Source: the human T2T-CHM13v2.0 reference genome, Homo sapiens. From it: DNA of 64,000 bases. Under the pieces are notes generated by a model, which made no database searches, had not been told where the DNA came from, and saw only the letters and a list, made by a program, of their open reading frames with translations. A program made the translations under genes and the position numbers. Location: assembly GCF_009914755.1 (NCBI RefSeq), contig NC_060927.1, one strand, 5' to 3'. This document shows, piece after piece, positions 51,800 through 53,372 of the stretch; within the stretch, counting starts at the first letter, position 1, and each line of letters starts with the position of its first letter.

Positions 51800-53372
51800 A
51801 GGGCTGTGGGGTGAAGGGACTGCCAGTCTTCTGCCACTCCTTTTCGTGGTCCTTCCCTTCACTGCCTTCCTTCTCCCAGACAGACTGGGCATCCAGTTCC
51901 AATCCAAAGGCTGCCCCTTTGACCAGGCCCATCTTCTCCACCTCACATCAGACAGCCAATCGGCTGCCCAGACCTCGAAACCTCAGTAACCTAGAAGGTA
52001 AGGACTTTCAGATTTCACCAGGAAGGATTATCCCTTCATGCCTTATAAAAGTAACAGAACCGGTCGGGCACAGTGGCTCATGCCTGTAATCCCAGCACTT
52101 TGGGAGGCCAAGGCAGATGGATCACCTGAGATCAGGAGTTTGAGACCAGCCTGGCCAACATGGTGAAACCCCCTCTCTACTAAAAATACAAAAAATTAGC
52201 CAGTCATGGTGGCACACGCCTGTAGTCCTAGCTACTTGGGAGGCTGAGGCAGGAGAATCACTTGAACCAGGGAGGCGGAGGTTGCAGTGAGCCAAGACCT
52301 CATCATTGCACTCCAGCCTGGGCAGCAAGAGTGAAACTCTGTCTCAAAAAATAAATAAATAAATAAAAACTAATAGAACCTATCAATTCATAGGAAATGG
52401 ACCTTGGCAAACGTGTGTCAGGAGAGGATGACTTGGAGGTGTCCACCGTGTTTCTTACTGAAGGTTTGTTCAAACCTAGAAATTCACTTGGGACAGCTTA
52501 TGAGCCCTCTCCTATTCTTGGGAAAGCTTTTAAATTGTCTGACAAAGTCTGTACCCCTGGAGCATGGGTTAGTTTGTTGAAGTCCACAGACCACACAGTT
52601 TCTTTGAAGGTGTGCAGCATGAGGGTGAGTTCCTCTATTGCCCACTGATGGAGAACTCACTTAGGCTGTCTTTTCTCTCCTTCAGATGTCTAAAAGTCAA
52701 TTGGGGTCAAGGAACAAGCCTCTACTCACATGCATGTGGGCAAATGAAGTCACAGAACAAATAACCTACCCTGCATCCAGGTTAGATCCTCCTGCACCAT
52801 TTCCTGCTTCTCTGCGGATCCTGCAATGTGGACCCCTGTCTGGATGTGGTGCTGGGGAGGTGGCTCCTCCCTGTCCCAGAGGCCCATCTCGTGTTCCCAC
52901 ACAGGCACGGAGTCCAGGGACACCCCCTGCTGCTGCCTAAGAGAAAGTGGCCCAAGAAGCACTGGCCCGGTGCCTGCTGATGCCAGGAGCCCTCTGCTAC
53001 TGCCTGACACAAGCATCCTGCGCTTCCCCCTCCCAGGCCCTCCCCGAAAGCGTGGGCCACAGGTACCACTCCCTATGCCACTGAGCCCCACATTTCCCAT
53101 CCCCCAAGCCACTCCCACCAGCCCCAGAGCTTTCCTACATTTATGATTTGTCCAAAAATGTGATGCCCTTCAGCCCCCAGAAGGTCATCCTCCAGGCTGT
53201 GATCGTCACACAGGGGGTCCCACATGGGGTCCTCACAGGCCTTCAACCCAGCACAAATCGTGGCCTGGTTTGACCTTTGAAATATCTCAACATCTAAAAT
53301 TCAGAGCTTTTTTGGAATATTTATTTTCCATAGATATAATTCTTTCAAATAAATTCCTTAGAAAACAATATC
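51800..53372 (+). pseudogene. C3orf86-like paralogue, two exons (exon 1 ends 51997; exon 2 52686-~53372), frameshifted
   Basis: Donor AAG|gtaagg at 51997; acceptor ttttctctccttcag|ATG at 52686; MSKSQLGSRNKPLLTCMWANEVTEQITYP aligns ungapped to the C3orf86 N-terminus; AATAAA 53348-53353; frameshift near 52937. Start coordinate is a guess. Confidence 0.8.
52062..52368 (+). mobile_element. AluS in the intron of the C3orf86 paralogue
   Basis: Dimer; TSD aaaa(g/c)taa(c/t)agaacc. Confidence 0.88.

What the first reader, a model, noticed from the sequence alone, without database searches (positions are those of the whole stretch)
51800..53372. Hidden inverted paralogue of C3orf86: complete two-exon gene model with a frameshift
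Seen: ORF 52686+ (MSKSQLGSRNKPLLTCMWANEVTEQITYPASRLDPPAPFPAS) aligns without gaps to C3orf86 (MSRGQFGQGQEPLDMFFWVNEISGEITYPPQKADAPAVSPES), 18/42 identical, sharing W-x-NE-x4-ITYP. Six conserved residues differ only synonymously (CAG/CAA, GGA/GGG, AAC/AAT, GAG/GAA, ATC/ATA, CCC/CCT). Both genes place the ATG 0-2 nt after a strong acceptor, have a similar upstream exon end (acc(c/t)cag..aacct..ag|gtaag) and have a poly(A) signal (here AATAAA 53348). Adding one base near 52937 (GCT GC[C] CTA AGA GAA AGT GGC) continues into LRESGPRSTGP, matching LKDSGSRNPCP, and later SPRAF, matching APWAF. Inference: an old duplication that was under protein-level selection and was later disabled; this defines a small uncharacterised family. 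I do not recall an annotation here.
Basis: partly seen in the sequence, partly recalled or inferred. Interest (0 to 1): 0.85.

Follow-up and report, generated by a model that had tools for sequence, protein, structure and literature searches.

The report
LINC01988 is a dead C3orf86 paralogue
The human long non-coding RNA gene LINC01988 (lncRNA-PAAN) is the broken remnant of a small protein-coding gene that is still whole in a bat and other species, and it is an old, inverted sister copy of the neighbouring pseudogene C3orf86P.

Summary
The core observation holds. The ORF at 52686-52940 (+) exists. Its first 42 residues align without gaps to C3orf86 (45650-45525, -) at 18/42 identity (0 of 200,000 shuffles reach the score). 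The two loci are each other's only match in the whole human assembly.

A profile search found five intact proteins of 190-203 aa: one from the bat Rousettus aegyptiacus and four from unnamed sources. They match 52686-53270 end to end and share the stop. All five need exactly two frameshifts in human.

A tree separates this clade (B) from the C3orf86 clade (A) with 100/100 support. The duplication therefore predates the bat-human split. No other B copy exists in the human genome.

Three reader claims fail. The upstream-exon similarity is at chance. SPRAF~APWAF is read in the wrong frame. The locus is annotated: it is LINC01988 = lncRNA-PAAN (PMC6024364).

Verdict: a transcribed unitary pseudogene recorded as a lncRNA. 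Its origin was found in none of the papers searched. It is a new member of a known kind.

The parts
51761..51997 (+). LINC01988 exon 1, a non-coding 5' exon with a short upstream ORF starting at 51791
   Evidence: Hub annotation table; donor AAG|GTAAGG read; upstream ATG
52394..52463 (+). LINC01988 exon 2. It holds an ATG at 52428 that is in frame with the 52686 ATG in the spliced RNA, giving a 68-aa ORF
   Evidence: Hub annotation table
52656..52685 (+). Pyrimidine tract and acceptor directly before the ATG. This is the only flanking DNA with weak similarity to the C3orf86 acceptor
   Evidence: blastn 52670-52705 vs 45668-45631, 76% over 38 nt, E 0.033
52686..52937 (+). Segment 1 of the ancestral coding sequence: frame 0, 84 codons. 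It includes the conserved N-terminal motif (about residues 12-29) shared with C3orf86
   Evidence: 66% identity to P0029 over 74 aa
52932..52938 (+). First disabling lesion: human is one base short here, and frame 0 then meets TAA at 52938-52940
   Evidence: Frame-aware alignment; 5 of 5 orthologues place it at 52932-52938
52937..53113 (+). Segment 2 of the ancestral coding sequence, readable only in frame 2 (59 codons, no stop)
   Evidence: separate genome-wide hit for window 52928-53116, E 7e-4, 49% identity
53114..53126 (+). Second disabling lesion: one extra base returns the reading to frame 0
   Evidence: placed at 53114 by 4 of 5 orthologues and at 53126 by 1 of 5
53115..53273 (+). Segment 3 of the ancestral coding sequence (frame 0, 52 codons) plus the shared stop codon at 53271-53273
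   Evidence: 62% identity to P0029 over 47 aa
52781..52904 (+). Intron of the annotated lncRNA, cut out of the former coding exon. Splicing puts the downstream part in a third frame and gives a 56-aa ORF
   Evidence: Hub annotation table; splice sites read; ORFs
53348..53353 (+). Poly(A) signal AATAAA, 15 nt before the annotated 3' end at 53368
   Evidence: hub annotation table
52770..52936 (-). C3orf86P exon lying antisense inside the old coding sequence. Its 5' splice site GTAGGT is the reverse complement of the Thr27-Tyr28 codons
   Evidence: Hub annotation table. Its translation forms the N-terminal extension of monkey models P0002 and P0007 and of the unnamed P0011 (26/43 identical)
45158..45650 (-). 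C3orf86P ancestral coding exon (paralogue A). The N-terminal ORF runs 45650-45345. The conserved C-terminal tail ends at 45158 and is in another frame
   Evidence: two one-base shortfalls near 45368 and 45342 relative to gibbon P0003; 145 of 165 identical

Best explanation
LINC01988 (lncRNA-PAAN) is a transcribed unitary pseudogene.

ORIGIN. An ancestral small gene had a non-coding 5' exon followed by a single coding exon whose ATG sits at the acceptor. It was duplicated locally and in inverted orientation before bats and primates diverged. This gave two paralogues: A (C3orf86) and B (this locus).

IN OTHER SPECIES. B still encodes a protein of 190-203 aa in Rousettus aegyptiacus and in four unnamed sources. 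The protein is proline-rich and mostly disordered. It has a conserved N-terminal hairpin motif and two predicted C-terminal helices.

IN HUMAN. The B reading frame is broken by a one-base loss at about 52935 and a one-base gain at about 53114. Frame 0 stops at 52938. The locus is still transcribed. The RNA is now spliced at sites inside the old coding exon (52780^52905), ends at the old poly(A) signal, and is recorded and studied as a non-coding RNA.

SHOWN HERE: the homology, the orthology by sequence, the two lesions, and the absence of another copy in the human genome.

INFERRED: that the arrangement is syntenic in the other species, when the gene was lost, and that the human RNA makes none of the ancestral protein.
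For: - Paralogy: 18/42 identities, z 9.8, 0 of 200,000 shuffles. The two loci are the only reciprocal hits in the 3.1-Gb assembly.
- Family profiles: A (14 sequences) vs B (5 sequences) give hhalign probability 99.4 and E 1.8e-21 over 144 columns.
- Intact relatives: a profile search of 1.84 billion representatives gave 20 hits at E<=1e-3, including P0013. A search with P0013 gave P0027 (UniRef name: Rousettus aegyptiacus uncharacterized protein) and P0028-P0030.
- Coverage: all five match window 52686-53270 at E 1e-33 to 2e-38, or in two pieces for P0029.
- Lesions: all five need exactly two frameshifts, with 105-114 identities in 199-208 columns and no stop in the supported frames.
- Open frame by chance: only 53 of 20,000 composition-matched shuffles stay open over that length.
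- Tree: B clade (bat, 4 unnamed, human ORF) and A clade (21 rows, with primates and sperm whale) each have 100/100 support.
- No other copy: P0013 hits the LINC01988 locus at E 9.6e-37 and C3orf86P at 3e-4. The next hit is E 0.38.
- Relaxed constraint: human keeps 50 of 70 columns that are invariant in the five orthologues. Leave-one-out values are 70/78 to 70/86. The human branch is 0.44 long, against 0.11-0.22 for the others.
- Codon pattern between the human paralogues: identity is 27/42 at position 1, 27/42 at position 2 and 18/42 at position 3.
- Adjacency in another species: the unnamed A-family model P0011 begins with the antisense translation of the B coding exon (26/43 identical, E 4e-15).
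Against: - Only protein sequences of the intact relatives were available. No dN/dS within clade B and no direct synteny check could be made.
- The databases hold only predicted ORFs, so species with a broken copy are invisible (ascertainment bias).
- Four of the five intact relatives come from unnamed sources.
- The human-to-human codon pattern fits equally well with copy B drifting neutrally while C3orf86 was constrained. It does not by itself show selection on B.
- There are just two lesions and no stop codon in 195 codons. That argues for a fairly recent loss, or leaves room for polymorphism. Only one human haplotype (this assembly) was seen.
- Expression, splicing and translation could not be tested here.
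- A residual 56-84-aa ORF keeps the conserved N-terminal motif.
Confidence: 0.85

Rival explanations
1. The locus is not dead. The residual ORF is 84 aa unspliced, and 56 or 68 aa in the spliced 866-nt RNA. It is translated into a short protein that keeps the conserved N-terminal hairpin motif and still has a function, so LINC01988 is a truncated coding gene and not a pure lncRNA.
For: - The ATG at the acceptor is kept, and the spliced RNA holds a 56-aa ORF from it. An in-frame ATG in exon 2 gives 68 aa.
- Exon 3 (52686-52780) carries residues 1-31, which include the motif. Those residues are modelled at pLDDT 77-86 in the orthologue.
- The RNA is reported as mainly cytoplasmic (PMC6024364, passage read).
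- 18 of 25 N-terminal invariant residues are kept.
Against: - 7 of 25 N-terminal residues that are invariant in the orthologues are changed in human, among them Phe16, Trp31 and Pro14.
- Upstream ATGs at 51791 and 52397 open short ORFs before it.
- The authors' coding-potential score was -0.98 (PMC6024364).
- The downstream part of each residual ORF is out-of-frame sequence unrelated to the family.
- No ribosome-profiling or peptide evidence was available. None of the 5 papers that name LINC01988 concerns translation, judging by their titles.
Confidence: 0.1
2. The intact 190-203-aa proteins are not orthologues of this locus. They belong to a third paralogue that human lacks entirely, and LINC01988 is an older duplicated pseudogene of it.
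For: Synteny of the intact genes was not checked. Four sources are unnamed.
Against: - The human ORF nests inside clade B, with the bat outside it.
- The match is end to end and shares the stop codon.
- The human genome holds only these two loci.
- The A-family model P0011 of another species carries an exon antisense to a B-type coding sequence, as in human.
Confidence: 0.04
3. The similarity to C3orf86 is chance, a shared repeat element, or conservation imposed by the antisense splice site, and not common descent of two genes.
For: - DNA similarity is weak: the best blastn hit is E 0.033, and only Alu pairs appear between the two arms.
- The Thr-Tyr codons double as the antisense 5' splice site of a C3orf86P exon.
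Against: - 0 of 200,000 shuffles reach the score.
- There are no further copies in the genome, which excludes a repeat family.
- The profile comparison gives E 1.8e-21 over 144 columns.
- The splice site covers 6 nt of 126.
Confidence: 0.01

Closest known systems
C3orf86 / C3orf86P (earlier called LINC00694), the neighbouring transcribed pseudogene and its 'C3orf86 homolog' proteins in primates and sperm whale
   Same: - Same N-terminal motif, same proline-rich middle, and the same layout with the ATG at the acceptor of one coding exon.
- Also frameshifted twice in human.
   Different: - It forms a separate clade with 100/100 support.
- Its C-terminal tail is different and does not align.
- It lies on the opposite strand.
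- RefSeq already calls C3orf86P a pseudogene, while it calls this locus a lncRNA.
Rousettus aegyptiacus uncharacterized protein A0A7J8HRG9 (P0027), with four unnamed relatives (P0013, P0028-P0030)
   Same: Collinear with the human locus from the ATG to the stop, with 105-114 identical residues in 199-208 columns. Same clade.
   Different: These are intact open frames. Human needs two frameshifts. No function is recorded for any of them, and none has a Pfam family.
lncRNAs that are fossils of lost protein-coding genes (Hezroni et al. 2017, PMC5577775; search listing and start of abstract seen, held supplements searched)
   Same: A transcribed locus annotated as a lncRNA that keeps recognisable remains of an ancestral coding sequence.
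   Different: This locus is not named in the 4 supplementary files held for that paper. Here the parent gene survives in other mammals, and an inverted paralogue, also dead, lies 7 kb away.
lncRNA-PAAN as described in the literature (PMC6024364, PMC12651648; passages read)
   Same: The same 866-nt, four-exon transcript.
   Different: Those papers treat it as non-coding on the basis of a coding-potential score. In the passages found they do not mention peptides or species, and 'conserved' occurs only in the reference list. In PMC12651648 the terms ORF and homolog do not occur. A pseudogene origin and the C3orf86 relationship appear in neither.

Membership tests
C3orf86-like superfamily (clades A and B) | N-terminal motif with invariant Trp18, Asn20, Glu21 and Thr27, directly after an initiator Met at the acceptor | tested here: met
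   These are invariant columns in the 21-sequence alignment A4. All are present in the human ORF.
C3orf86-like superfamily (clades A and B) | Collinear proline-rich middle region | tested here: met
   hhalign of A vs B over 144 columns, E 1.8e-21. In human the region is present only in frame 2.
Clade A (C3orf86 proper) | Conserved C-terminal tail ending ...NNRFSF | tested here: not met
   The B tail is different and does not align (hhalign probability 0.3). The tree places the human ORF outside A.
Clade B (Rousettus A0A7J8HRG9-like) | End-to-end collinearity, shared stop codon and placement inside the clade | tested here: met
   Best genome-wide hit, E 9.6e-37.
Clade B (Rousettus A0A7J8HRG9-like) | Intact open reading frame of about 190-203 codons | tested here: not met
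   Two frameshifts, and a TAA at 52938 in frame 0.
Unitary pseudogene | Disabling lesions in a gene that is intact in other species | tested here: met
Unitary pseudogene | No functional copy elsewhere in the same genome | tested here: met
   Six-frame search of the assembly with P0013 found only this locus and C3orf86P below E 0.38. The tool scores only its best candidates.
Unitary pseudogene | Syntenic position of the intact orthologues | not testable with these tools
   No mammalian genome other than this one is held. The only indirect support is the antisense exon in P0011.
Long non-coding RNA (LINC01988 / lncRNA-PAAN) | Spliced, polyadenylated transcript without a conserved full-length ORF | tested here: inconclusive
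   The annotation and the 866-nt length agree, and the longest ORF is 68 aa. Expression was not testable.
Translated small ORF / micropeptide | Ribosome footprints, peptides, or an ORF conserved among close relatives | not testable with these tools
   No ribosome-profiling, proteome or primate genome data are on hand.
WW domain (a resemblance of the motif to strands 2-3, recalled from memory) | Match to the Pfam WW model or to solved WW structures | tested here: not met
   No Pfam family at E<=1 or E<=0.1. No PDB sequence match at E<=10.

The most novel reading that the evidence does not exclude
The mainly cytoplasmic lncRNA-PAAN is translated from the preserved ATG at 52686, or from the in-frame ATG at 52428, into a peptide of 56-68 aa. 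That peptide keeps the ancient N-terminal hairpin motif of a mammalian protein family, and it contributes to effects now credited to the RNA alone.

In addition, the two paralogues form a conserved sense-antisense pair. C3orf86's upstream exon lies inside the B coding exon, and its splice donor is the reverse complement of the family's invariant Thr-Tyr codons. On this reading, each gene's transcription regulates the other's.
Probability: 0.07. Interest if true: 0.8.

Novelty: new member of a known kind. Interest (0 to 1): 0.5.

Why it matters
- It shows where an experimentally studied human lncRNA came from. LINC01988 is the shell of a protein-coding gene that other mammals still have.
- It shows that human has lost both members of a small, uncharacterised mammalian gene pair.
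- People who study lncRNA-PAAN should know that exon 3 is a former coding start with a preserved ATG and a conserved motif. That bears on knock-down, overexpression and antisense-oligonucleotide experiments.
- For annotation, the locus should be flagged as a unitary pseudogene related to C3orf86P, and the intact mammalian genes should be named as one family.
- The kind of event is already well documented, so the surprise lies in the particular case, not in the principle.

Tried and rejected
- Pairwise DNA search of the two exons and their arms found only a weak acceptor-region hit (E 0.033) and Alu pairs. There is no extended inverted repeat at the DNA level.
- Downstream of codon 42, human-to-human comparisons were at chance: DNA 22/300, any-frame protein 105/200. 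I therefore at first judged the frameshift claim unsupported. The intact orthologues reversed that.
- Upstream-exon similarity was at chance for all five C3orf86P exons tested (48/500 to 495/500 shuffles reach the score).
- A protein search with the human 84-aa ORF alone found nothing.
- No Pfam family was found for 4 + 5 proteins, except that P0024 and P0025 carry NHL, TIG and Big-like domains. These are long multi-domain proteins that hit the profile at E 1e-4 through six short stretches. I set them aside as unrelated and did not follow them further.
- There was no PDB sequence match and no Rfam family in 51000-54000.
- The ESM Atlas model of P0013 has pTM 0.14, and its structure neighbours are at TM<=0.32, which is meaningless. 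The AlphaFold2 model has pLDDT 59.8 and pTM 0.20. I ran no fold search because most of the model is low-confidence.
- The C-terminal tails of A and B do not align.
- Earlier findings of this scan were not open.
- No complex prediction was run.

Full report
WHAT IS IN THE SEQUENCE

It has 84 codons and reads as quoted. The C3orf86 ORF starts at 45650 on the - strand. From its second Met it has 101 codons, ending at 45345. Both ATGs sit at a pyrimidine-rich acceptor: 0 nt after it in LINC01988 and 2 nt after it in C3orf86. AATAAA is at 53348.

IS THE SIMILARITY MORE THAN CHANCE?

Yes, for the first 42 residues.
- The gapless alignment has 18/42 identities and a BLOSUM62 score of 96. Shuffles average -31 (sd 12.9, z 9.8), and 0 of 200,000 reach the observed score.
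- Within the window, tblastn gives E 1.5e-7 with composition correction. The next hit is at E 0.79.
- In a six-frame search of the whole 3.1-Gb assembly, each peptide finds the other locus as its only hit below E 1 (E 3.4e-3 and 2.7e-3). This is therefore not a repeat family.

At the DNA level the two copies are 72/126 identical. By codon position the identity is 27/42, 27/42 and 18/42, and the Nei-Gojobori estimates are dN 0.48 and dS 1.85 (saturated). This pattern alone does not show selection on this copy. It is also what one expects if this copy drifted while C3orf86 stayed constrained.

Outside the coding start there is almost no DNA similarity. The acceptor region gives E 0.033. Between 40000-50500 and 50501-58000 only Alu pairs appear.

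CLAIMS THAT FAILED ON HUMAN-TO-HUMAN COMPARISON

- Downstream of codon 42, the best local DNA alignment is reached by 22 of 300 dinucleotide shuffles.
- The best protein alignment in any pair of frames is reached by 105 of 200 shuffles.
- The similar upstream exon end (C3orf86P exon 47801-47871 against LINC01988 exon 1) is reached by 355 of 500 shuffles. The other four C3orf86P exons range from 48/500 to 495/500, none below 48/500.

RELATIVES ELSEWHERE

A word-indexed protein search with human C3orf86 found 9 proteins: eight from primates and one from sperm whale (56% identity). The whale protein matches the LINC01988 ORF better than human C3orf86 does (E 1.3e-11 in the window). That is expected if the primate C3orf86 lineage carries derived changes. 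The human 84-aa ORF on its own found nothing.

A profile of these sequences plus the human ORF (alignment A1) was run against 1.84 billion representatives. It gave 20 proteins at E<=1e-3. Most are longer C3orf86-type proteins (clade A) of 130-215 aa with a strongly conserved C-terminal tail.

One hit, P0013 (195 aa), looks like the LINC01988 ORF and not like C3orf86. Searching with it gave four more: P0027, which UniRef names as an uncharacterized protein of Rousettus aegyptiacus, and P0028-P0030 from unnamed sources. They are 59-67% identical to P0013.

THE DECISIVE RESULT

All five intact proteins match the window from 52686 to 53270 at E 1e-33 to 2e-38, or in two pieces for P0029. They end at the same stop, 53271-53273. 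A frame-aware protein-to-DNA alignment that I wrote, with X placed at each break, needs exactly two frameshifts in every one of the five cases.
- Human is one base short at 52932-52938.
- Human has one base extra at 53114 (4 of 5 cases) or 53126 (1 of 5).

With these two shifts, 105-114 residues are identical in 199-208 columns, and no stop occurs in the supported frames. A composition-matched random sequence stays open over that length in only 53 of 20,000 shuffles.

The middle segment in its own frame is also found independently in the genome-wide search (window 52928-53116, E 7e-4).

The later SPRAF match is the right piece of DNA read in the wrong frame, because the frame has already returned to frame 0 by then.

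RELATIONSHIP OF THE TWO FAMILIES

Profile against profile, A (14 sequences) and B (5 sequences) match with probability 99.4 and E 1.8e-21 over 144 columns. The match runs from the initiator Met through the proline-rich middle. The C-terminal tails do not align (probability 0.3).

A maximum-likelihood tree of 27 rows gives two clades, each with 100/100 support.
- Clade B holds the bat, four unnamed sequences and the human LINC01988 ORF.
- Clade A holds 21 rows, including the primates and the sperm whale.

Clade B contains a bat and human, and clade A contains a whale and primates. The duplication is therefore older than the split of those lineages. This dating rests on the named species only. 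The root is a midpoint root, used for drawing.

State of the human copy:
- The human B branch is long: 0.44, against 0.11-0.22 for the others.
- Human keeps 50 of the 70 columns that are invariant in the five orthologues. Each orthologue keeps 70 of 78-86 columns that are invariant in the other four. Constraint is thus relaxed.
- With only two lesions and no stop, the loss may not be very old. I could not date it.

IS THERE ANOTHER COPY IN HUMAN?

P0013 hits the LINC01988 locus at E 9.6e-37 and C3orf86P at 3e-4. Nothing else scores below E 0.38. The A-type protein P0010 hits C3orf86P in two frames and LINC01988 third. Human therefore has no intact B gene.

Human C3orf86P is broken in a similar way. 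Against gibbon P0003 it needs two one-base shortfalls, near 45368 and 45342. Its conserved tail ends at 45158 in another frame, and 145 of 165 residues are identical. This agrees with RefSeq's pseudogene label.

WHAT THE HUMAN LOCUS DOES NOW

The hub table gives one RefSeq transcript with four exons, and its length is 866 nt. This is lncRNA-PAAN. The paper (PMC6024364, passages read) describes:
- four exons and 866 nt;
- a position between TCAIM and ZNF445;
- a coding-potential score of -0.98;
- mainly cytoplasmic localisation.

According to the abstract lines seen, the RNA enhances influenza A virus replication. In PMC6024364 the terms peptide and species do not occur, and 'conserved' occurs only in the reference list. 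In PMC12651648 the terms ORF and homolog do not occur.

The lncRNA's third exon (52686-52780) begins exactly at the old start codon and ends after residue 31. Its last intron (52781-52904) is cut out of the old coding exon. That puts the rest in a third frame, so the spliced RNA carries a 56-aa ORF, or 68 aa from an in-frame ATG at 52428. Short upstream ORFs start at 51791 and 52397.

THE PROTEIN IN SPECIES THAT KEEP IT

- No Pfam family was found.
- No solved relative was found by sequence.
- The AlphaFold2 model on 21 sequences has mean pLDDT 59.8 and pTM 0.20. It shows a small hairpin around residues 18-27 (blocks at pLDDT 77-86) and two C-terminal helices, 152-162 and 167-183.
- The Atlas model has pTM 0.14.

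The protein therefore looks mostly disordered, with short conserved ends. Its function is unknown. My guess of germline expression is inference only.

KNOWN OR NEW?

Full-text searches returned the following:
- C3orf86: 8 papers.
- LINC01988: 5 papers.
- LINC00694: 6 papers.
- LOC100506319: 3 papers.
- lncRNA-PAAN: 49 papers, of which 15 were listed.

None of the titles or abstract openings listed deals with the origin of the locus or links the two loci. The four held supplementary files of the paper on lncRNA fossils of coding genes do not name the locus or its neighbours. Supplements of other papers and of preprints were not seen.

The kind of event is well known, but this case appears unreported. 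RefSeq lists the locus as a lncRNA and not as a pseudogene.

VERDICT

LINC01988 is a transcribed unitary pseudogene of the B paralogue of C3orf86, broken by two frameshifts. Interest is moderate.

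Noticed in passing
window 52764-52772 and 52770-52936 (-): The C3orf86P exon 52770-52936 lies antisense inside the old B coding exon. Its 5' splice site GTAGGT is the exact reverse complement of the invariant Thr27-Tyr28 codons of the family motif. Monkey models P0002 and P0007, and the unnamed non-primate-like model P0011, start with the translation of this antisense exon (26/43 identical). 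The sense-antisense overlap of the two paralogues therefore seems old.
   Followed up: partly
window 45158-45650 (-): Human C3orf86P is itself broken by two one-base shortfalls, near 45368 and 45342, relative to the intact gibbon protein. The strongly conserved C-terminal tail of the family survives in another frame. Human has thus lost both paralogues.
   Followed up: yes
window 52428 and 52686 (+), spliced RNA: In the annotated 866-nt RNA an ATG in exon 2 is in frame with the old start codon. This makes the longest ORF 68 aa instead of 56 aa.
   Followed up: partly
proteins P0004, P0005, P0008 vs P0003, P0006: Different species' C3orf86 models read the 3' half of the exon in different frames, and several are flagged low quality by their source. 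This suggests repeated frameshifts in this proline-rich middle region across mammals.
   Followed up: no
proteins P0024 and P0025: Two long proteins (1254 and 1295 aa) with NHL, TIG or Big-like domains hit the family profile at E about 1e-4 through six short stretches each. They are probably unrelated repeats, but the matched stretches were not inspected.
   Followed up: no
window 52060-52377 and 49338-51477: Alu elements fill LINC01988 intron 1 and much of the space between the two genes' upstream exons. The 5' end of monkey model P0002 looks Alu-derived, but that is recalled resemblance and was not tested.
   Followed up: no
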